Positions 55,100 through 64,000 of a stretch of 64,000 nt of DNA are shown here, piece by piece. Position 1 is the first letter of the stretch. The number at the start of each line of letters is the position of its first letter. The position numbers and the translations under genes are program-made. The DNA is from Escherichia phage vB_EcoM_11B_SA_NWU, in the sequence record OR062527; one strand, written 5' to 3'. The notes under the pieces were generated by a model. That model was not told the origin of the DNA. It searched no databases and saw nothing but the letters and a program-made list of their open reading frames with translations.

Positions 55100-55129
55100 A
55101 CTATAACACAATACGAGGGACTTGTAAAC
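55100..55129 (-). promoter_or_regulatory. early promoter GTTTAC-18-TATAGT
   Basis: sigma70-like hexamers upstream of 96-aa ORF. Confidence 0.5.
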
Positions 55130-57186
55130 TACATTTTGAACTTTTTAGACATTCTGTTGATGTTAACCAAAGAAGCTAAGATTTGAGAAACTTCGCTTTC
55201 CTCTTCTTTTGATTCTTCTACAAGGAATTGATTAAATCCAGCCATTGGACGAACTTCACCAGTTTCCATTAGATGGTCACCATCATATACCGATTCCTCT
55301 AATTGTTCAGAAGGAGGAACAATCGTGCCTTCAATTAGATACTTATTATAAGCGGTTTCTTTCATCATGTACGTACTTACTTTATTAATCTTCAGTAAAA
55401 TTCCACGCGGCAAAATAACTTCAGCTTCGGATGGAAATCCTGATAAATGACCCGGAACGATAACTTTAACTCGTTCAGCTCCTTTAATTACCATACCTAC
55501 ATTAGTTTCAGCGTCTTCATTCGCATATGTAGAATGACTACCCATATGCATTAAATCTTCAGCATCAACTGAACCTTCTCCTTCACCAGAAAATACTGTT
55601 CCAGCGTCATCTAAAGCCATATAATTTTTACCATATTCACCGAAGATATTTGGCTTGAGTGAAGTAGATACAAAGTTCTTGAAATAGAACATTTTATTTT
55701 CTATATTATGACGTAAAGTTTTAAAAGTAACTTCTTGGCCACGGTAAAGTGTAGTTCCCGGAGGAAGAACTGAACCTTTAGCAAATGCAGAATCCAACGT
55801 CTCAATGTGCTTAATAGCACGTTCCATATATTCTTCACGTGTAGAATCAGGTTTACCTAAAAGGAACGAGTTCATTTCAACATATGAATCTGCGCAATAA
55901 TCTTCAATTACATCAGACTCAGCCTGAGTTAATCCTTTTGGAGTTACTTCAGTGCTTGCATATTCATATGCCTGAGCAGCAGATTCATCAATTAATTTAT
56001 AAATTCCATTCATTACAAATTGAATAATAGCTGTCTTTTCATCTGGTGTAGCTTTAGAACCTTTAACTAAATCATTGACAATTTTCTTAATAACATCAAA
56101 GCTATTAGAAATATTAATGTCAGCAAGATCGCTTAAAATTTTATCAGTTTTATAATCAAAGAATTCTTTATTCTTTAAATATTCTTGAGAACCTTGATAT
56201 GTTATATCGCTCTGCAGCTTGATAGATGGATCGCGTAAACGTGCATGGGCCAATGCAATATGATTTCGGAAGCTTTCGAGTTCATAATCACTAGATTTAA
56301 AACGAGAAGCACTTCTCATACCACCGATAGCTCCTTTGCTAAAGTTTGAACCAACCTGAATAACGCCAGAGTTCATTGGTCCTTCTGCTTTATATACCGG
56401 AACTTTAGATTCAAACTCTTGATATTTCTTAGCAGCGAAGCTATCACCCTGAAGTGAAGCATCAACAGTAGAATATTGAGCTTGTGCTGCTAATCGACGA
56501 CTAATTTTAGTTTTCTGAATAACAGCTTGATCCGTGCGCTTATCATTTTCTAAAGCAATAGAAGCAGCAACAGCAACAGCTTTAGGAACAGCATTACCTG
56601 TTTTAACGTCTACATAAACATCACCAACCTTTGATTCAACTTTTGTGAATAACTCGGTTGAAATAGGAGGTACACCTGGAATGTCTTCTAAATTGGCATT
56701 TTTACGGTAAACCATAATATATGCGTACTTTTTATCATAATCCCAGATTTCCTTTAAAAGAACATATCGACCTGCTCCTTTAGTACGTACTAAACGGTCA
56801 GCAATAACTTGCATTTGACGAGCTGCGCCATTTGTTTTACTTTTTAGTACGCGGAATAGGCATGCATCAATTTTATACTGCTTCATTGTTTGAAGAGCAG
56901 TATCAAAAACAGCATTAATGACGCCAATTGGATTTCCACCCAAGTTTTTAAGCTTAACTAATGATAGTTTCTCATTAACACCTATCATTACGATATGCAT
57001 CATTTTGTCGCCTGGCTTAACGTTTTTATTCGTATCACCGCCAGAGGTGTATGTACAAAATCTAAATCCAGGAAGCACGCTTTCTTCACCTGCTTGAATA
57101 GCAAAAATTTGAGGTATTTTATGCTTAGGATTTAAGTTAACAACCGGCGCCGAAGCGCCGTCAAATAATTCTGTAATAAGTTCCAT
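55129..57186 (-). CDS. Alt-like ADP-ribosyltransferase paralog (685 aa)
   Basis: N-terminus MELITELFD shared with alt; motifs YRGQ, FYFKNFVSTSL, SEAEVILPRG; translationally coupled to upstream alt. Confidence 0.8.
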   Translation of the reverse strand: MELITELFDGASAPVVNLNPKHKIPQIFAIQAGEESVLPGFRFCTYTSGGDTNKNVKPGDKMMHIVMIGVNEKLSLVKLKNLGGNPIGVINAVFDTALQTMKQYKIDACLFRVLKSKTNGAARQMQVIADRLVRTKGAGRYVLLKEIWDYDKKYAYIMVYRKNANLEDIPGVPPISTELFTKVESKVGDVYVDVKTGNAVPKAVAVAASIALENDKRTDQAVIQKTKISRRLAAQAQYSTVDASLQGDSFAAKKYQEFESKVPVYKAEGPMNSGVIQVGSNFSKGAIGGMRSASRFKSSDYELESFRNHIALAHARLRDPSIKLQSDITYQGSQEYLKNKEFFDYKTDKILSDLADINISNSFDVIKKIVNDLVKGSKATPDEKTAIIQFVMNGIYKLIDESAAQAYEYASTEVTPKGLTQAESDVIEDYCADSYVEMNSFLLGKPDSTREEYMERAIKHIETLDSAFAKGSVLPPGTTLYRGQEVTFKTLRHNIENKMFYFKNFVSTSLKPNIFGEYGKNYMALDDAGTVFSGEGEGSVDAEDLMHMGSHSTYANEDAETNVGMVIKGAERVKVIVPGHLSGFPSEAEVILPRGILLKINKVSTYMMKETAYNKYLIEGTIVPPSEQLEESVYDGDHLMETGEVRPMAGFNQFLVEESKEEESEVSQILASLVNINRMSKKFKM

Positions 57187-57189
57187 GAT

Positions 57190-59283
57190 TTATCCTTGAA
57201 CGAACTTGTAAGGCATGTTTGTAATATCTATGCAAGACGCAATAATTCCAAGAGATGATTCTACTTTCTGTTTAATATTTGATGAAACAAATGATGCAAA
57301 GTCAACTCTGTCTTCTATTTCAATATCACCTGTCATTGCAACCAATTCACCAGTTTCCATTAAATGGTCTCCGTCATAGATTACCGATTCGGTGAGCTCT
57401 TCTGTGGTCATAACTTCAGCTTGAATGAGTTTTGTATTATTAGATGTTGTTCCGTCATTATTAGAAGCATCAGTTATTTTATTAACCTTGACCATCAATC
57501 CGCGTGGTAGAATAACTTCAGCTTCTGTTGCTATTCCGAGACTTCCTGGATATACAACATTAACTTTATGAGCTCCATCAATTGCCCATCCTATTTGAAC
57601 TTTAACATATTCAGGATTTTCTTTATACGCTCTTATTTCGTTTGGATTAATAGTTATTCCTTCTTCATTTTTATCAACTGTTAATTCATTGCGAGCTTCT
57701 GGTTCTAAAAGACCAATACCAGCATGTGTGATTCCAAAACGTCCAAAAATGATAGGAGTTAAAGAAGTAGATACAAAATTTCTGAAGTAGAACACTTTAT
57801 TTTTAACTAACGCTTCATATATAGGAGCAGTCATACTTTGAGCACGATAAACTGTAATGCCTTCTGGTATACGGTCACCATTTTCAAAAGCTGAATCTAA
57901 GTTATTTATAGCAGATTCAATTTCTTTTTCACTCATTACATCGTATCGTTCTGGATTGTAACGACCTAAAAGAAGATTATTGATGTCAGTATATCCTGAA
58001 CCGCAATATTCTCTAATGCCACGCTTTTGTGATGGAGTATATTTAGAACCATCGCGTGCAATAGTAATATCAATCATTGGACCAGCACCAATTCCAGAAA
58101 AACTGTAAATCATTCGTTTGAGGAATTTAGTTTTTGTTGCGTTCCAGGAATTTTTAGTTATTTCTTCCCAGACTTCATCTGATTGTCCTTTACGATTTTT
58201 ATTATGATTAGCAAGCCATTTATCTTTATAATCTTCAAAGAATTGATTTACAGCTGCTGCGTATTTCTCTAAACATTTTATTGAAGTAGTTGGTTCATTT
58301 TTAATTGCATTAAAAATTACTTCTTTAATTTTTTCTGAAACTTCACCGACTTGACTCATTGGAAAGAATTTATAATCATAGTGAAGTTCATCTGCCGTTC
58401 CTTCGGCAATAATTTTTGCTGCCTTTGTTTTAGAAGCTAATGAATTAATTCCAATTTTCATTTCTTCTGCTTCGGGAATTAAAGGTGCAGTAGCTGGTTT
58501 ATTAAAATTGGCTGCTGTAGATTCATACTTCTGGAATAATTCACTTTCAAATCTAGAAGATTCCAATGACTGACTTTGTGCAATTGCTCTACGGGAAATT
58601 TTAACTTTAACGATTACAGCTTGGTCAGAACGTTTATCATTTTCTTGTGCAATAGATGCTGCAATTGCCTCATTTTTAGTTACTTGAGCACCAGTATCTT
58701 TATTGATATAAACATCACCGACCTTCGATTCAACTTTAGTAAAGAGCTCTGTACTAATTTCCGGAACTCCTGGAATGTCTTCTAGTGATACATTTTTGCG
58801 ATGTATAAGAATATATGCATACTTTTTATCGTAATCCCAGAGTTCCTTAAGAAGGACGTATCTGCCACCTGAACGACTGCGGATGAGTCTATCAGCAATA
58901 AGTTGAATTTGTCGAGCTTGACCGGCGGTTTTAGACTTAAGAATACGAAGCATACAGGCATCAATTTTATATTGACGCATTGTTTGCATTGCAACAGTAA
59001 AAACAGAATTGATATAATTAATCGGGCTTGGACCAAGACCTTTTAATTTAGCAATTGAACCTTTAGCAGTTAATGTAAAAGGAACAATATGCATCATTTT
59101 GTCGCCCATCTTTAAATCACGATTAGTATCACCTCCAGATGTATAGGTACATAAACGAAAGCCTGGTTGTTCAATTGCATCATCAACATGAACTGAAAAA
59201 ATTTGTGGTATTTTCTTCTTTGGATTTAAGTTTGTAATCGGAAGAGTAGTATCTTCGTCAAATAATTCTGTAATAAGTTCCAT
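57190..59283 (-). CDS. alt: ADP-ribosyltransferase Alt (697 aa)
   Basis: motifs YRAQ, FYFRNFVSTSL, ATEAEVILPRG; late promoter TATAAATA 24 nt upstream. Confidence 0.85.
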   Translation of the reverse strand: MELITELFDEDTTLPITNLNPKKKIPQIFSVHVDDAIEQPGFRLCTYTSGGDTNRDLKMGDKMMHIVPFTLTAKGSIAKLKGLGPSPINYINSVFTVAMQTMRQYKIDACMLRILKSKTAGQARQIQLIADRLIRSRSGGRYVLLKELWDYDKKYAYILIHRKNVSLEDIPGVPEISTELFTKVESKVGDVYINKDTGAQVTKNEAIAASIAQENDKRSDQAVIVKVKISRRAIAQSQSLESSRFESELFQKYESTAANFNKPATAPLIPEAEEMKIGINSLASKTKAAKIIAEGTADELHYDYKFFPMSQVGEVSEKIKEVIFNAIKNEPTTSIKCLEKYAAAVNQFFEDYKDKWLANHNKNRKGQSDEVWEEITKNSWNATKTKFLKRMIYSFSGIGAGPMIDITIARDGSKYTPSQKRGIREYCGSGYTDINNLLLGRYNPERYDVMSEKEIESAINNLDSAFENGDRIPEGITVYRAQSMTAPIYEALVKNKVFYFRNFVSTSLTPIIFGRFGITHAGIGLLEPEARNELTVDKNEEGITINPNEIRAYKENPEYVKVQIGWAIDGAHKVNVVYPGSLGIATEAEVILPRGLMVKVNKITDASNNDGTTSNNTKLIQAEVMTTEELTESVIYDGDHLMETGELVAMTGDIEIEDRVDFASFVSSNIKQKVESSLGIIASCIDITNMPYKFVQG

Positions 59284-59306
59284 GTTATCCTCTCTAGTGT
59301 TTATTC

Positions 59307-59314
59307 TATTTATA
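59307..59314 (-). promoter_or_regulatory. late promoter TATAAATA (alt)
   Basis: exact consensus 24 nt upstream of alt ATG; preceded by UUCG hairpin 59320-59337. Confidence 0.6.
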
Positions 59315-59339
59315 AAATTAAAGGCCCGAAGGCCTTTAA

Positions 59340-59525
59340 TTAATAGAGAGCTAAAAGAGTACGATATACTTCAAACTTTGGACCTTTTTCATATGGATCA
59401 AATCTTTCCGTGAATTCATCATATGCTAGTTTATCTGGGAATTCAAGAATAACCTGCGATACCGCAGTGGAAACATCTCCACCTTCTTTTTGAGCCACGA
59501 CAATTGTTTCTAAGTAAGCTTTCAT
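59340..59525 (-). CDS. hypothetical protein 61 aa
   Basis: ORF overlapping ligase stop by 4 nt. Confidence 0.45.
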   Translation of the reverse strand: MKAYLETIVVAQKEGGDVSTAVSQVILEFPDKLAYDEFTERFDPYEKGPKFEVYRTLLALY

Positions 59526-60985
59526 AAACCAGTTACCTCATGAAAATCGCCAAATACATCTTCGAACGTATTAGCTTTAGTTTTATCTTCACGTAAACGA
59601 ATTGCAATTGGAAGAAATAGCTTAACGTAATCAGTACGTCCATCTAATTTTACCCAGCCGTTGCATTCGCACTCTAGAATTTTTCCAATATAATAATTTT
59701 GGTTTTCCATAATGCGAGTACGGTCAAGTTCATGCGATTTTACGCCGGCTTTATCTTTTAAGCCTGAACCAGCATTTACTTTAATTTTTCCACACTCTGA
59801 TTCAAGAATGAAACCACCTGCTTTAGTAGGGTCTTTACGGTGAGGATAAATTCCTACAATTTTTAAATCAACATCAATTACTTCTTTAAATTTATAAAGA
59901 TTTTTTGAACGAGCATTTTCCCATAATCCATCGATATTTTTGAGAATAATACCTTCAAGACCTTGGTCAATATACTTTTTGTAAATTACCTTAGCTTCAT
60001 CTAGGTTATTTACTACTTGGTTTTCAATTAAAATTACTTTATCATAGCCTGATGTCATTTGTTCTAGTTTAGAAAAACGTACATCATATTTTAAACGAAA
60101 CGCCGGAAGACCGTATATTTCTACCAACGGAACATAATCCCAGACCTGAAACTTCATGCATTGAGCTTCTTTTTCTGAAATAGTTCCCTTTAAAGATTTA
60201 TTAGCGATTCCATTAGAAGTAGTACGTGATTCAGCTACTTCGGCGAATTCTTTAGCTTTACTAATTTCAGGATAAGCATCAAAAAGAAAATCTAGGCCTT
60301 CTGGCTCCTTTTCAACTTGCTCATGGTATACCAATTCGCCATCAATTAACACACCTTCTGGATGAATCTGGCGAGCTTCTGCAGTCATTTTGATTAACTC
60401 TTCTTTGAGAAGATCTAATCCTAGATATTCATTACCAGCTCGTGATAAAAGACGAACATCATCTAATTCATCACCTCTGACTTCAGCAAAGCACCGAGCT
60501 CCATCAGCTTTTAATTGGGCAAAGGCTGGAAATTTGATATTCTTATTAATGCCTTTTTCATCATAAGAACTTGCCAGCATTTGAGGTTGTTCAGGAATTA
60601 AACCTGGCCAAACTTTATTTGCAATAGATACAGAAGCACCACATTCAAGGTCTCGCATCATTACTCGACGTAATACTTCAACATCATCTTTTTTACCATC
60701 GGTGATATATCCGATTAATTCCTCAATTGCCGCATTTCCAGTCAATTTCCGAGTAGCTAACGTGAATTCAATGAAGTCAAGCATATCGGTAAGAGTCAAC
60801 ATTCCAAAACTCTGGGTAGTAATACCCGGTTTAGGCCATTTCTTGATATAATACTGTAACCCACGAGAATAAGTCAGACGATATACTCGTTTAAGCAATT
60901 CATTATCTTTATTCTTTTCAAGAATTGCTTGCTTCTGCTTAGTTGAACCAATAGATGCTATTTCGTTCAGAATTTTAAGAATCAT
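59522..60985 (-). CDS. 30: ATP-dependent DNA ligase gp30
   Basis: 487 aa; adenylation motif KADGAR; N-terminus MILKILNEIASIGSTKQKQ as T4 ligase. Confidence 0.95.
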   Translation of the reverse strand: MILKILNEIASIGSTKQKQAILEKNKDNELLKRVYRLTYSRGLQYYIKKWPKPGITTQSFGMLTLTDMLDFIEFTLATRKLTGNAAIEELIGYITDGKKDDVEVLRRVMMRDLECGASVSIANKVWPGLIPEQPQMLASSYDEKGINKNIKFPAFAQLKADGARCFAEVRGDELDDVRLLSRAGNEYLGLDLLKEELIKMTAEARQIHPEGVLIDGELVYHEQVEKEPEGLDFLFDAYPEISKAKEFAEVAESRTTSNGIANKSLKGTISEKEAQCMKFQVWDYVPLVEIYGLPAFRLKYDVRFSKLEQMTSGYDKVILIENQVVNNLDEAKVIYKKYIDQGLEGIILKNIDGLWENARSKNLYKFKEVIDVDLKIVGIYPHRKDPTKAGGFILESECGKIKVNAGSGLKDKAGVKSHELDRTRIMENQNYYIGKILECECNGWVKLDGRTDYVKLFLPIAIRLREDKTKANTFEDVFGDFHEVTGL

Positions 60986-61251
60986 TGTTCATCCTTTAGA
61001 GTTTGGTTTACAGCTCTATTATAAATCAATTCATCATTAAGCTCAGTCAAAGACCTGTGGTACGTGGTTCTAACTTTATTTCCTTGCATCCAGTGCTTGA
61101 CGTAAATGAAACCTTGCTCTACACATTTTTTAAAAATTCGTTCGTCTTTTTGAGCTCGGAATTCTGGATTGCATCTAAAAAATTGATTTACGTGACCGTA
61201 ATCACGTGTAGTATTACCTTCATTTTCATAAATAGTGTGAACAACAAACAT
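60982..61251 (-). CDS. hypothetical protein (30.1-like)
   Basis: 89 aa ORF. Confidence 0.5.
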   Translation of the reverse strand: MFVVHTIYENEGNTTRDYGHVNQFFRCNPEFRAQKDERIFKKCVEQGFIYVKHWMQGNKVRTTYHRSLTELNDELIYNRAVNQTLKDEQ

Positions 61252-62087
61252 CAGAATGCTCCTTGGAAAATATTATCACCACTAGTAGGTCTATTATACA
61301 AATACTCTATGCCACCGGGTTTAATATAGTTCCATGTCTGAAACGGATGCGTCTGATATGGATGATATAGATTATAAGGATTAAATCCAGGAGTTCTCCA
61401 GGTAGTGTTCCAAGGAAAAGAATCATTTTTAATCATCTTTTCAATTACATCTTTTATAGCTTTTTCACTATCAAAACTTTCTTTATTTTCATTCGATGGA
61501 AAAAGCTTATTCTCTACATCATTCCATGTATAAACTCGCTGTGCAGTTTTTGGAATACTGTCACGCTCCCCTCGAGCCATCCAATAAACAGGAACATTTA
61601 ATATTTCACTCGCATGATCGCAGTGGTGAGCGAGATCGTCAATATAACAAATTACGTTATATTTCTCTTTTGCCTTTTTGAACAACTCTTCTTTTGAAGA
61701 ATCATGACCACACATCAATACTTCTGAGAAGGCACCAGGAAAAAGAGCATTCAAATTAAATTGACGATTCAGCAGAGCGTCAATAGAATCACCCAGTGCT
61801 GTAACAGCTACAAAATTATAATCTTCTTTTAATTTGTTAATTACACACAGGGCATCTTTATATGGAGACAAGTAACGAATAAAATCTGAACGATTGTATT
61901 TTTCAATTAACTTGACACCAAGTTCTTCATCACAATTAAAAAGTTTACCAGGTGAAATAAATTTTTCGTCCTGAATCATTTTTAAAATATGTTCTAATGG
62001 AAGATTATATTTTTGGGCAAAATAAGGAAGGCCTGATTGCCAGCTTAAACATACTCCATCAATATCAGTTAAAATAGTAGGCTTCAT
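61251..62087 (-). CDS. HAD-like phosphatase candidate (30.2-like)
   Basis: N-terminal motif ILTDIDGV (DxDG[TV]) typical of HAD hydrolases. Confidence 0.55.
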   Translation of the reverse strand: MKPTILTDIDGVCLSWQSGLPYFAQKYNLPLEHILKMIQDEKFISPGKLFNCDEELGVKLIEKYNRSDFIRYLSPYKDALCVINKLKEDYNFVAVTALGDSIDALLNRQFNLNALFPGAFSEVLMCGHDSSKEELFKKAKEKYNVICYIDDLAHHCDHASEILNVPVYWMARGERDSIPKTAQRVYTWNDVENKLFPSNENKESFDSEKAIKDVIEKMIKNDSFPWNTTWRTPGFNPYNLYHPYQTHPFQTWNYIKPGGIEYLYNRPTSGDNIFQGAF

Positions 62088-62548
62088 AGAGAGTCTCTTA
62101 ATAGGTTTAACACATCAATAAATTCAGCTTCGGTTAGTATTGTATCATCTTTTGTTAGACCACTAGCCATGCTGTGCTTCAAAACTTTTCCTTTCGAGGC
62201 TTGTAATGCATCACGAAACCCCTTGTTTTGAATCGCTGCTTCAAAATATGCATTTGTATACAATTCTTTCCACGCTGGGGAGTATCTTGAAAATGGAACT
62301 CCGAGCCAGAAGAGGGTCCCACGGTCCGCAGCTCTTGCATAAGACCTTCCAGCTTGTTGGGCGGCAAGCCCGGATAACCCAAATATACGTCTTTGCTGCT
62401 CAACATTTTTCACCTTGCATCCTTGGAGGAATCCTTCAAGACCTCCGAATTGAATACCATCCATGACGAAAGGCCATTGGGCGAAATTACTTAATGCGCA
62501 TGATGGCCATCTAAAATTGCTTCTAATCTCTAACTCAGACATTTTCAA
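62084..62548 (-). CDS. hypothetical protein (30.3-like)
   Basis: 154 aa ORF. Confidence 0.5.
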   Translation of the reverse strand: MKMSELEIRSNFRWPSCALSNFAQWPFVMDGIQFGGLEGFLQGCKVKNVEQQRRIFGLSGLAAQQAGRSYARAADRGTLFWLGVPFSRYSPAWKELYTNAYFEAAIQNKGFRDALQASKGKVLKHSMASGLTKDDTILTEAEFIDVLNLLRDSL

Positions 62549-62741
62549 TACTTATAATTTCAACATCAGCCCAATGACCATAGCAAGGAAGACGAAATTC
62601 AACTGGCCAGTTAGGGTCCTTTTCTAATATAATAGACTTAACTTGTGGTTCTTCATGTTCATCAGTATATGGATTTTTATCTGTTACTTTATATGTGACC
62701 TTAATGTATTGAATTCCAAAAATCTTATTAATTATATTCAT
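62535..62741 (-). CDS. hypothetical protein 68 aa
   Basis: ORF in overlapping string. Confidence 0.45.
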   Translation of the reverse strand: MNIINKIFGIQYIKVTYKVTDKNPYTDEHEEPQVKSIILEKDPNWPVEFRLPCYGHWADVEIISIENV

Positions 62742-62935
62742 ACTAATTCCTTTAATCCGTAAATAGGAGACAATTCATCACCCATACGAAGGTCTTCATT
62801 TCCATCTACCCAGGAAACAATATAAGCCTCTTTTATTTGAACACCACTCCATTTAAATGGAGGTAGAACCTTAGAAATTAATCCAGGTATACCAACTCCC
62901 TTTAATTCAACAGTTTGACCTAAAAAGAATTTCAT
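62738..62935 (-). CDS. hypothetical protein 65 aa
   Basis: ORF in overlapping string. Confidence 0.45.
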   Translation of the reverse strand: MKFFLGQTVELKGVGIPGLISKVLPPFKWSGVQIKEAYIVSWVDGNEDLRMGDELSPIYGLKELV

Positions 62936-63222
62936 TAGAACCTCATCTGAAAACCATGCGATTTAACATTACCGCCGCCAATATCAGAAATATTAATTTC
63001 ACGCGCAATCGAAGGATCGATGTCAATTTCACGATTAAGTTTAGCGATAGCTAAAGTATCACGCCCATTTACAGTACGGAACTCTAAAGGACAAACCACA
63101 TCAACGTAATTTTTAATCGATTCACTAGTAGGCTGCAAATGAGCAGGAAGGTCTTTAGGCGCCTTTGAGAAAACCACTTCACAAAAATTTTTGCGGGTGT
63201 CAAAATAAGTAGTCATAAACAT
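62935..63222 (-). CDS. hypothetical protein 95 aa
   Basis: ORF in overlapping string. Confidence 0.45.
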   Translation of the reverse strand: MFMTTYFDTRKNFCEVVFSKAPKDLPAHLQPTSESIKNYVDVVCPLEFRTVNGRDTLAIAKLNREIDIDPSIAREINISDIGGGNVKSHGFQMRF

Positions 63223-63263
63223 AATATTTTCCTCAGTAAGGGGCCAAAGCCCCTCATTTTATT

Positions 63264-63629
63264 TTAAATATCAAATTCATTAAGAACTACATCAAAGATT
63301 GCTTCAAGATGCTCAGGTTTAGCTCTGTTACTCAGAATATGACGAATCCAAGTTTTAACCAAAAGCTTGCGATTAGCACCATTCCAGCAAGGATGAGTCC
63401 CTAAATCGCGTTGACGAAAATCATCATCCAGAGCGATTTTAAAGTTGGAACCTTCCATTGTGATTGAAACCGTGATGCCATTTTCAAATCGCATATAAAC
63501 GTAGTTAGGAGTCATATACTGTTCAATTTCGCATACTGATCCATTTTGATGTTTCCAAAGGCAAATAGTATCAATAGAACCTGCAATACCATTAGAAACA
63601 TATTTACGTTCAAAGTTGATGTAGTTCAT
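63264..63629 (-). CDS. hypothetical protein 121 aa
   Basis: SD GGAGAA; early promoter with stem-loop upstream. Confidence 0.5.
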   Translation of the reverse strand: MNYINFERKYVSNGIAGSIDTICLWKHQNGSVCEIEQYMTPNYVYMRFENGITVSITMEGSNFKIALDDDFRQRDLGTHPCWNGANRKLLVKTWIRHILSNRAKPEHLEAIFDVVLNEFDI

Positions 63630-63655
63630 TTTTATTCTCCGAGATGTTTAATTGC

Positions 63656-63695
63656 GGTACAGGTATATAATATCATATCCTGTACCAAAGTAAAC
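63656..63695 (-). promoter_or_regulatory. early promoter GTTTAC-17-TATTAT enclosed by stem-loop GGTACAGG/CCTGTACC
   Basis: hexamers plus 8-bp inverted repeat around -10. Confidence 0.55.
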
Positions 63696-63697
63696 AA

Positions 63698-63964
63698 TTA
63701 TTTTACTACTTTCCAGTGTTGCATGTCAAGTTTACCGACTTTTTTCATCTTCTCAATTAAGCGTTCGGCACGTTGGCGAGCTGTAACATAATGCCATTCG
63801 CCTAATTCATTTTGTTCAATTTTTCCAACGATTACTGTATTCAATTCATAAATCCAACCAGTAAAGAAATTATGAACTTGAATTGTAAAGGTGAAATCTG
63901 TTCCCATACCTTCTGTTGTTTCTACTTCAATAATATCACCTTCAACTGCCATTAAGAACCACAT
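63698..63964 (-). CDS. hypothetical protein 88 aa
   Basis: ORF. Confidence 0.45.
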   Translation of the reverse strand: MWFLMAVEGDIIEVETTEGMGTDFTFTIQVHNFFTGWIYELNTVIVGKIEQNELGEWHYVTARQRAERLIEKMKKVGKLDMQHWKVVK

Positions 63965-64000
63965 AGTTTCGTTATATTCACCATTGAAGCATTTAGCTTT

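What the first reader, a model, noticed from the sequence alone, without database searches (positions are those of the whole stretch)
61251..62548. HAD-like phosphatase candidate and conserved unknown ORF downstream of DNA ligase
The 278-aa ORF begins MKPTILTDIDGVCLSW, matching HAD-superfamily motif I (DxDG[TV]) and suggesting a nucleotide or sugar phosphatase. The next ORF (154 aa) is an unknown conserved-looking protein. Both lie in a string of eight overlapping small ORFs beside ligase and the Alt transferases, a neighbourhood suited to nucleic-acid or nucleotide modification functions.
Basis: inference. Interest (0 to 1): 0.28.

Follow-up and report, generated by a model that had tools for sequence, protein, structure and literature searches.

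The report
T4 genes 30.2 and 30.3 (AdfN)
These are phage T4's genes 30.2 and 30.3: 30.3 is the already characterised enzyme AdfN, which strips a host defence's ADP-ribose marks from phage DNA, and 30.2 is an untested but clearly HAD-type phosphatase that most resembles nucleotide-dephosphorylating enzymes.

Summary
The window is a T4-like (Tequatrovirus) genome. Both ORFs are real minus-strand genes.

**Gene 30.3 (the "154-aa unknown")**
- It is 99% identical to T4 gp30.3. The true start is the ATG at 62542, giving 152 aa.
- gp30.3 is AdfN, a published NADAR-family DNA ADP-ribosylglycohydrolase that defeats the DarTG1 defence system.
- Its catalytic residues E36 and K43 and the phage-type H123 are present, and the C-terminal helix is intact.

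**Gene 30.2 (the 278-aa ORF)**
- It is 97% identical to T4 gp30.2.
HAD motifs I (D8/D10), II (T96), III (K132) and IV (D150/D151) are essentially invariant across 75 divergent relatives.
- The nearest family is NT5C, the 5'(3')-deoxyribonucleotidases. The link rests on bridging relatives; gp30.2 itself gets no NT5C hit in Pfam. Its substrate is untested.
- It stays next to DNA ligase in 74 of 80 related viral loci. The NADAR gene is not consistently linked to it.

**Verdict:** ordinary, largely known T4 accessory genes of low novelty.

The parts
61251..62087 (-). Gene 30.2: 278-aa HAD-superfamily phosphatase candidate (stop codon 61251-61253).
61503..62087 (-). gp30.2 residues 1-195: HAD Rossmann-like core plus a helical C1-type cap (cap is roughly residues 16-86).
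   Evidence: pLDDT above 90 through residue ~190. Strand/helix order is b1(4-7), six cap helices (16-86), b2(91-96), b3(120-125), b4(145-150), b5(167-169). The conserved part of the family ends at about residue 200.
62052..62066 (-). HAD motif I, D8-I-D10-G-V (nucleophile Asp and acid/base Asp).
   Evidence: D8 and D10 are present in 74/74 divergent relatives. The invariant W16 aligns with the Phe that follows motif I in mitochondrial deoxyribonucleotidase 2jao.
61800..61802 (-). HAD motif II, T96, at the end of strand b2.
   Evidence: T in 64 and S in 10 of 74 relatives.
61692..61694 (-). HAD motif III, K132.
   Evidence: K in 74/74 relatives. It sits just before helix 133-142.
61635..61640 (-). 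HAD motif IV, D150-D151, at the end of strand b4.
   Evidence: D or E at 150 in 73/73 relatives; D151 in 71/73.
61254..61502 (-). gp30.2 C-terminal tail, residues 196-278. It is aromatic- and Pro-rich, mostly low confidence, and carries a conserved G-IEY-L-x-x-(R/Q)PT stretch near the end. Its function is unknown.
   Evidence: pLDDT below 50 for residues 225-234, 239-257 and 270-278. The tail is absent or different in many homologues of about 200 aa, and the IEY..PT motif recurs among the sequences.
62084..62542 (-). Gene 30.3 = adfN: 152-aa NADAR-family DNA ADP-ribosylglycohydrolase (anti-DarTG1), full length.
62435..62437 (-). AdfN catalytic E36.
   Evidence: Invariant in 32 homologues. An E36A change abolishes function in T4 AdfN.
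62414..62416 (-). AdfN catalytic K43.
   Evidence: Conserved in at least 90% of homologues. A K43A change abolishes function.
62174..62176 (-). AdfN H123 in the last strand: the histidine that marks phage (gp30.3-type) NADARs.
   Evidence: Invariant. It lies in strand 120-123. The literature describes His here in place of Glu/Asp.
60982..61251 (-). Gene 30.1 (DUF3045, 89 aa). It overlaps the 30.2 stop codon by 1 nt. Context only.
   Evidence: Pfam PF11243 at 2.9e-64. Found fused to a gp30.2 core in P0015.
59522..60985 (-). Gene 30, ATP-dependent DNA ligase: the most persistent neighbour of the HAD gene. Context only.
   Evidence: ORF. T4 and Bas38 annotation. Ligase lies no more than ~1.5 kb from the HAD gene on the same strand in 74/80 related loci, downstream in 73.

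Best explanation
The interval holds two early/accessory genes of a T4-like phage. They are read on the minus strand as part of the translationally coupled run 30.6 > 30.5 > 30.4 > 30.3 > 30.2 > 30.1 > 30 (ligase).

**Gene 30.3 (shown, via literature and confirmed features).** It encodes AdfN, a single-domain NADAR glycohydrolase. AdfN cuts ADP-ribose off guanine bases that the host toxin DarT1 puts on phage DNA, so the phage can replicate in DarTG1 hosts. This copy is full length and has the catalytic residues, so it should be active.

**Gene 30.2, what is shown.** It encodes a Mg-dependent phospho-aspartyl (DxD) HAD phosphatase with a helical C1 cap. This type closes over small phosphorylated molecules.

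**Gene 30.2, what is inferred.** It most likely hydrolyses a nucleoside or deoxynucleoside monophosphate, in the manner of 5'(3')-deoxyribonucleotidases (NT5C). That would trim or sanitise a nucleotide pool during infection. It is dispensable in the laboratory host. Its variable C-terminal tail probably mediates a lineage-specific interaction.

**Confidence by claim.** About 0.97 for the identity of gp30.3. About 0.9 that gp30.2 is a catalytically competent HAD phosphatase. About 0.45 that its substrate is a nucleotide monophosphate.
For: **gp30.3**
- 99% identical to T4 gp30.3.
- Pfam PF08010 at 3.6e-69.
- E36, K43 and H123 are conserved.
- A profile of the family hits E. coli YbiA (2b3w) at E 0.0025.
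- Published genetics and biochemistry of AdfN are in bioRxiv 10.1101/2024.07.11.602962 and PMC11125620.

**gp30.2**
- The motif I-IV residues are essentially invariant in 75 relatives that share only 21-48% identity.
- The model core has pLDDT above 90 and HAD topology.
- A broad family profile hits 3bwv, a putative 5'(3')-deoxyribonucleotidase, at 5.6e-6. The next hits are the yeast nucleotidase SSM1/Sdt1 and other HADs.
- NT5C is the Pfam family most often hit by distant relatives (19/75).
- P0318 and P0338 match the gp30.2 profile at about 1e-20 and also pass Pfam's NT5C cut-off (40.2 and 36.8 bits against 24.8).
- P0318 is 26% identical to gp30.2 (E 5e-16).
- W16 aligns with the Phe after motif I in mitochondrial deoxyribonucleotidase.
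- Knock-down of T4 30.2 gave no fitness effect in a CRISPRi-ART screen (scored 'Not Fit'; supplement of PMC11879866).
Against: - The gp30.2 protein itself has no Pfam, NCBIfam or PADLOC hit.
- Single-sequence matches to solved structures are not significant (E about 1).
- No biochemical or genetic study of gp30.2 was found.
- A general dNMP phosphatase looks counter-productive for T4, which recycles host dNMPs. Any nucleotidase activity would need to be selective.
Confidence: 0.85

Rival explanations
1. gp30.2 is an enzymatic counter-defence nucleotidase. It removes a nucleotide precursor or a phosphorylated immune signal, in the way phage T5's HAD-type Dmp depletes dAMP to block dITP signalling by the Kongming defence system.
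For: T5 Dmp is a phage dNMP phosphatase with an anti-Kongming role, and it carries HAD motif I (DLDGT, with D22 as nucleophile). gp30.2 lies in a block of accessory genes next to a proven counter-defence gene, adfN. It is dispensable in a laboratory host. Its tail varies between lineages, which is typical of genes in an arms race.
Against: No specific relationship to T5 Dmp beyond the superfamily motif was detected (hhalign probability 1.3%). There is no PADLOC or literature link. The Kongming paper does not mention T-even phages. The core of the protein is strongly conserved across Straboviridae, more like a housekeeping enzyme.
Confidence: 0.15
2. gp30.2 works with DNA ligase on nucleic-acid ends, for example as a 3'-phosphatase that makes nicks ligatable, like the HAD domain of polynucleotide kinase-phosphatase.
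For: Ligase lies on the same strand within about 1.5 kb of the HAD gene in 74/80 related viral loci, often overlapping it. This includes a rearranged locus where the order is reversed but the two genes stay 667 nt apart (L002). Some viral structural neighbours are PNK-type HADs.
Against: The linkage can be inherited synteny, because almost all loci are T4-like. The five most divergent homologues (L076, L081-L084) have no ligase within 5 kb. The roughly 70-residue helical C1 cap is typical of small-molecule HADs, whereas end-processing HADs are capless (established HAD classification). T4-like phages already carry PseT, whose HAD_PNKP domain is seen in the same loci.
Confidence: 0.1
3. gp30.2 is the 'additional factor' that makes AdfN fully effective in T-even infections. 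For example, it might process ADP-ribose or a phosphorylated product of DNA de-ADP-ribosylation.
For: adfN and 30.2 overlap by ATGA. NADAR lies within 1.2 kb upstream of the HAD gene in 37/80 HAD loci across distant T4-like phages. The AdfN paper leaves open that another phage factor may be needed for full activity.
Against: Only 20-22 of 80 gp30.3-type NADAR loci have the HAD gene within 5 kb. Several T4-like genomes keep the NADAR about 55 kb from the HAD-ligase block. AdfN alone removes ADP-ribose from DNA in vitro, and the authors favour a DNA-modification explanation.
Confidence: 0.07
4. gp30.2 is a HAD enzyme of another chemistry or substrate: a sugar-phosphate phosphatase or phosphomutase, a phosphoglycolate phosphatase, or a dehalogenase.
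Against: The invariant second Asp (D10) of motif I and the K132/DD set mark phosphoryl transfer rather than dehalogenation (established HAD knowledge). The best sequence bridges are to nucleotidases.
Confidence: 0.2

Closest known systems
T4 gp30.3 = AdfN (anti-DarT factor NADAR); Pfam PF08010 Phage_30_3 within the NADAR/YbiA superfamily
   Same: 99% identical over all 152 residues. It has the same catalytic E36 and K43 and the phage-type H123, an intact C-terminal helix, the same genomic position, and the NADAR fold.
   Different: Two substitutions relative to T4 (A72 here for Q in T4, and M125 here for I). Nothing suggests a functional difference.
T4 gp30.2 (phrog_420), an uncharacterised conserved protein
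   Same: 97% identical, the same 278-aa length, and the same position between 30.3 and 30.1.
   Different: Eight substitutions, half of them in the C-terminal tail (residues 197, 198, 240 and 269).
5'(3')-deoxyribonucleotidases, Pfam PF06941 NT5C (human dNT-1/dNT-2; 3bwv from Staphylococcus epidermidis)
   Same: HAD core with a helical C1 cap. DxDGV motif I followed eight residues later by an aromatic residue (W16 against Phe). T/S, K and DD motifs. Bridging relatives pass the NT5C threshold.
   Different: gp30.2 itself gets no NT5C hit. It has family-specific invariant residues (R108, N111) and an extra tail of about 80 residues. Its substrate is untested.
Phage T5 Dmp (deoxynucleoside-5'-monophosphatase, anti-Kongming)
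   Same: A phage-encoded HAD-type phosphatase with a DxDG[TV] nucleophile motif and a DD motif IV. It comes from a phage that also encodes a dNMP kinase.
   Different: No detectable specific homology (hhalign probability 1.3%). The genomic context differs (pre-early first-step-transfer region). T5 discards host dNMPs, whereas T4 recycles them.

Membership tests
HAD (haloacid dehalogenase-like) phosphatase superfamily - gp30.2 | Motif I, hhhDxDx[TV], at the end of strand 1 (nucleophile Asp plus an acid/base Asp two residues later). | tested here: met
   ILTD8ID10GV. D8 and D10 are present in 74/74 divergent relatives. The motif follows strand E4-7 in the model.
HAD (haloacid dehalogenase-like) phosphatase superfamily - gp30.2 | Motif II, Thr or Ser at the end of strand 2. 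| tested here: met
   T96 at the end of E91-96. T in 64 and S in 10 of 74 relatives.
HAD (haloacid dehalogenase-like) phosphatase superfamily - gp30.2 | Motif III, Lys (or Arg) before strand 4. | tested here: met
   K132 is present in 74/74 relatives, at the N-terminus of helix 133-142.
HAD (haloacid dehalogenase-like) phosphatase superfamily - gp30.2 | Motif IV, acidic pair (DD or GDxxxD) at the end of strand 4. | tested here: met
   YID150D151. D or E at 150 in 73/73 relatives; D151 in 71/73. It sits at the end of E145-150.
HAD (haloacid dehalogenase-like) phosphatase superfamily - gp30.2 | Rossmann-like alpha/beta core with a cap inserted after motif I. | tested here: met
HAD (haloacid dehalogenase-like) phosphatase superfamily - gp30.2 | Mg-dependent phosphatase activity. 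| not testable with these tools
   Needs an enzyme assay.
NT5C 5'(3')-deoxyribonucleotidase family (Pfam PF06941) - gp30.2 | Score above Pfam's gathering cut-off (24.8 bits). | tested here: not met
   The window protein has no NT5C hit. Relatives P0318 (40.2 bits) and P0338 (36.8 bits) do pass. L081's homologue reaches 24.0 bits, just below the cut-off. gp30.2 is therefore filed as NT5C-related, not as a member.
NT5C 5'(3')-deoxyribonucleotidase family (Pfam PF06941) - gp30.2 | Aromatic base-stacking residue eight positions after the nucleophile Asp (Phe in the mitochondrial enzyme; recalled from the literature). | tested here: inconclusive
   W16 (73/74 relatives) aligns with that Phe of 2jao. 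The role of the residue is recalled, not tested here.
NT5C 5'(3')-deoxyribonucleotidase family (Pfam PF06941) - gp30.2 | Hydrolysis of dNMPs or NMPs. | not testable with these tools
   Needs a substrate screen.
NADAR superfamily, phage gp30.3/AdfN clade - gp30.3 | Pfam PF08010 above its cut-off. | tested here: met
   231.4 bits against a cut-off of 36, covering the full profile length.
NADAR superfamily, phage gp30.3/AdfN clade - gp30.3 | YbiA/NADAR fold. | tested here: met
NADAR superfamily, phage gp30.3/AdfN clade - gp30.3 | Catalytic Glu and Lys (E36, K43 in T4 numbering), plus His in the last strand for the phage clade. | tested here: met
   E36 and H123 are invariant and K43 is conserved in at least 90% of 32 homologues.
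NADAR superfamily, phage gp30.3/AdfN clade - gp30.3 | Full-length C-terminal helix (lost in the inactive RB69 allele). | tested here: met
   All 152 aa align with T4 to the last residue. Helix 138-151 is present in the model.
NADAR superfamily, phage gp30.3/AdfN clade - gp30.3 | Removal of guanine-linked ADP-ribose from DNA, and rescue from DarTG1. | not testable with these tools
   Shown for the 99%-identical T4 protein in the literature.

The most novel reading that the evidence does not exclude
gp30.2 is a second enzymatic counter-defence factor of T-even phages. It would be an NT5C-related nucleotidase that selectively destroys a nucleotide precursor or a phosphorylated nucleotide signal used by a host immune system, analogous to T5 Dmp against Kongming. 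Its variable C-terminal tail would target it to a phage or host partner. A weaker variant is that it is the unidentified helper which makes AdfN fully effective in T-even infections.
Probability: 0.15. Interest if true: 0.55.

Novelty: already known. Interest (0 to 1): 0.2.

Why it matters
**Annotation value.**
- The 'unknown' ORF should be labelled adfN, an anti-DarTG1 NADAR DNA ADP-ribosylglycohydrolase. This copy is predicted to be active, so the phage should resist DarTG1.
- gp30.2 can be labelled a HAD-superfamily phosphatase, NT5C-related.

**The one open question.**
- The substrate of gp30.2 is unknown. The family is conserved across T4-like phages, with about 1,500 clusters at 50% identity.
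- No study of it was found, even though T4 is the best-known model phage.
- A defined nucleotidase in T4 would add a missing piece to T4 nucleotide metabolism or to its counter-defence set. That would be a modest gain, not a surprise.

Tried and rejected
**Direct database searches with gp30.2 gave nothing useful.**
- Pfam, NCBIfam and PADLOC returned nothing beyond chance-level hits.
- Single-sequence searches of solved structures gave nothing significant for either protein.

**Literature on gp30.2.**
- Searches for 'gp30.2', and for 30.1/30.2/30.3 combined with 'bacteriophage T4', found no study of the gene.
- The T4 genome review (PMC150520) is not held.
- The CRISPRi-ART paper mentions 30.2 only in its supplements, as unknown function and 'Not Fit'.

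**Homology to T5 Dmp.** Rejected: hhalign aligns only motif I, with probability 1.3%, and Dmp itself has no Pfam hit.

**Fusion partners.** Long relatives of gp30.2 (P0253, P0317, P0206, P0243 and others) have no recognisable extra domain.

**Independent gene contexts.** L081 and L083 gave no nucleotide-metabolism neighbours, only a clamp-loader-like AAA protein and PhoH.

**Promoter and terminator scan.** Site counts are within chance (23 promoter-like sites against 19.1 +/- 4.0 expected).

**Technical failures.**
- The AFDB Foldseek library was unavailable.
- Alignment A3 was too diverse for the locus search.

**Obligate NADAR-HAD coupling.** Considered and rejected on the co-occurrence counts.
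Full report
**What is there.** The window is a T4-like phage genome. Positions 59300-64000 are 98.3% identical to several Tequatrovirus genomes, and 728 phage records match. All genes in this stretch are on the minus strand. The ORF table, the T4 reference annotation and the Bas38 annotation agree on the layout:

- two Alt-type ADP-ribosyltransferase genes (55129-57186 and 57190-59283);
- alt.1 (59340-59525);
- gene 30, DNA ligase (59522-60985);
- 30.1 (60982-61251);
- 30.2 (61251-62087, 278 aa);
- 30.3 (62084-62542, 152 aa);
- 30.4 to 30.8 beyond that.

The finding's interval therefore covers T4 genes 30.2 and 30.3. The window proteins are 97% (270/278) and 99% (150/152) identical to the T4 proteins. 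The published residue numbering fits only the ATG at 62542. Junctions from ligase up to 30.6 overlap by 1-8 nt (ATGA for 30.3/30.2, TGATG for 30.2/30.1), which suggests translational coupling.

**Gene 30.3 is not unknown.** It matches Pfam PF08010 (Phage_30_3) at 3.6e-69. Two papers cover it.

- T4 gp30.3, renamed AdfN, is necessary and sufficient for T-even phages to overcome the DarTG1 toxin-antitoxin defence. E36A and K43A changes abolish activity. RB69 is sensitive because a frameshift removes the last 15 residues (bioRxiv 10.1101/2024.07.11.602962).

I checked the defining features on this copy.

- In an alignment of 32 homologues down to 35% identity, E36 and H123 are invariant and K43 is at least 90% conserved. 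H123 is the histidine that marks the phage clade.
- The AlphaFold2 model is confident (pLDDT 93.9) and includes the C-terminal helix 138-151.
- A family profile also reaches YbiA by sequence (E 0.0025).

This copy is therefore an intact adfN.

**Gene 30.2 is a HAD-type phosphatase.** Direct library searches fail: no Pfam, NCBIfam or PADLOC hit, and only phrog_420 'unknown function'.

- In 33 homologues, D8, D10 and G11 (motif I) and K132 (motif III) are invariant. T96 (motif II) and D150-D151 (motif IV) are at least 90% conserved.
- An exhaustive profile search found 1,540 cluster representatives at E <= 0.001 and 678 at <= 1e-10.
- In 75 of these, sharing only 21-48% identity with the query, the same residues hold: D8 74/74, D10 74/74, T/S96 74/74, K132 74/74, D/E150 73/73 and D151 71/73.
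- The family-specific residues W16 (73/74), R108 (74/74) and N111 (72/74) are also conserved.
- The AlphaFold2 model has pLDDT above 90 through residue ~190. Its topology is the classical one: motif I after strand 1, a six-helix insertion (residues 16-86, a C1 cap), motif II ending strand 2, motif III before helix 133-142, and motif IV ending strand 4.
- The invariant second aspartate of motif I, with the Lys and the DD pair, indicates phosphoryl transfer rather than dehalogenation (established HAD knowledge).

- The close-family profile's best solved hit is mitochondrial 5'(3')-deoxyribonucleotidase (2jao, E 0.015). W16 aligns there with the Phe that follows motif I.
- The broad profile hits 3bwv (putative 5'(3')-deoxyribonucleotidase) at 5.6e-6, then yeast SSM1/Sdt1 nucleotidase at 1.4e-4. 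All but one of the 29 hits are HAD proteins.
- Among 75 distant relatives, NT5C is the most frequent Pfam hit: 19 members, best 4.2e-10.
- P0318 and P0338 match the gp30.2 profile at about 1e-20. They also exceed Pfam's NT5C cut-off, at 40.2 and 36.8 bits against 24.8.
- P0318 is 26% identical to gp30.2 (E 5e-16).
- Viral structural neighbours that carry names are mostly '5' nucleotidase'.

The window protein itself does not reach the NT5C threshold. I therefore call it NT5C-related, not a member. The nucleotide-monophosphatase activity is an inference, at about 0.45.

**The C-terminal tail.** Residues 196-278 are aromatic- and Pro-rich and mostly of low confidence. Many relatives stop at about 200 aa, among them the 212-aa P0009 and P0010. 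Other lineages carry unrelated tails. A stretch G-IEY-L-x-x-(R/Q)PT recurs near the C-terminus in a number of homologues. I have no tested explanation. A lineage-specific docking peptide is my guess.

**Neighbourhood.**

- In 80 loci holding a gp30.2 relative (77 from viral contigs and 3 from metagenome assemblies), a ligase gene lies on the same strand within about 1.5 kb in 74, downstream of the HAD gene in 73, and usually within 0-500 nt.
- A gp30.3-type NADAR lies within 1.2 kb upstream in 37 of those loci, and 30.1 is present in 24.
- In a rearranged contig (L002) the order is reversed, but ligase and HAD stay 667 nt apart.
- Conversely, of 80 loci found with the NADAR, only 20-22 have the HAD gene within 5 kb. 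Several T4-like genomes keep their NADAR about 55 kb away from the HAD-ligase block.

The NADAR is therefore a mobile accessory gene, not an obligate partner of gp30.2. The HAD-ligase linkage is persistent, but it may simply be inherited synteny. The five most divergent homologues (L076, L081-L084) lack a nearby ligase.

**Comparison with known phage nucleotidases.** T5 Dmp dephosphorylates dNMPs and thereby blocks the dITP-signalling Kongming defence (bioRxiv 10.1101/2024.12.20.629578). Its sequence shows a HAD motif I (WD22LDGT) and a DD motif. It has no specific similarity to gp30.2 (hhalign probability 1.3%). It is an analogue, not an orthologue. It shows that a phage HAD nucleotidase can be a counter-defence enzyme. 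T4 30.2 knock-down had no fitness effect in the laboratory host (supplement of PMC11879866), which is consistent with an accessory role. I found no paper on gp30.2.

**Verdict.** The HAD interpretation is supported. The 'unknown' neighbour is the known AdfN. Nothing here departs from T4 biology as already catalogued. The only open point is the substrate and role of gp30.2, for which I commit to an NT5C-like, selective nucleotide monophosphatase (about 0.45). The rivals are a counter-defence nucleotidase (a more specific version of that reading, 0.15), other small-molecule HAD chemistry (0.2), a ligase-associated end phosphatase (0.1) and an AdfN helper (0.07). Interest is low (0.2).

Noticed in passing
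window 55129-57186 (-) and 57190-59283 (-): There are two full-length Alt-type ADP-ribosyltransferase paralogues in tandem (685 and 697 aa). T4 itself has one alt gene plus the degenerate fragments alt.-1 and alt.-2. Bas38 annotates the pair as Alt2 and Alt.
   Followed up: partly
window 62179-62406 (-): A 75-aa ORF lies inside gene 30.3 in another reading frame. It corresponds to T4's annotated 30.3' ('internal translation in a different reading frame'). P0116 (phage vB_Eco_NR1) starts in this frame and continues in the 30.3 frame, so it is a frameshifted adfN lacking E36 and K43.
   Followed up: partly
proteins P0115, P0114, P0145, P0192 (relatives of window 62084-62542): Several natural Tequatrovirus-like sequences carry only the C-terminal half of adfN, fused to pieces of 30.7, 30.8 or other neighbours. 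The gene is therefore broken by deletions in some phages, as it is by a frameshift in RB69. The 30.3-30.8 stretch looks deletion-prone.
   Followed up: no
protein P0015 (relative of window 60982-62087): A gp30.2 HAD core is fused in frame to a gp30.1 (DUF3045) domain. The protein is 302 aa, and its motif I reads DIDD instead of DIDG. This could be a real fusion or an assembly or frameshift artefact.
   Followed up: no
window 61254-61502 (-), gp30.2 residues 196-278: The tail is variable, low-confidence and aromatic/Pro-rich. A G-IEY-L-x-x-(R/Q)PT motif recurs near its C-terminus in a number of homologues, while other lineages have quite different tails (for example ...LRAYY or ...LLNKVxANDS) or none.
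   Followed up: partly
window 63239-63254 and 63700-63729: A GC-rich hairpin (AGGGGC-CAAA-GCCCCT) sits in the 41-nt gap between 30.7 and 30.6. An 11/12 sigma-70-like site (TTGACA-18-TAAAAT, minus strand) lies upstream of 30.7. Overall site counts are within chance.
   Followed up: no
loci L113, L114, L130, L136, L139, L143, L154, L159, L160, L162: Several T4-like genomes whose HAD-ligase block lacks a NADAR carry a gp30.3-type NADAR elsewhere, about 55 kb away on the same contig. The NADAR gene has therefore moved, or been acquired more than once, within Straboviridae.
   Followed up: partly
window 63698-63964 (-): The 88-aa ORF listed for 30.8 matches positions 27-124 of the 124-position Pfam model. 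T4 30.8 is 110 aa. The real start therefore probably lies beyond the window end at 64000.
   Followed up: no
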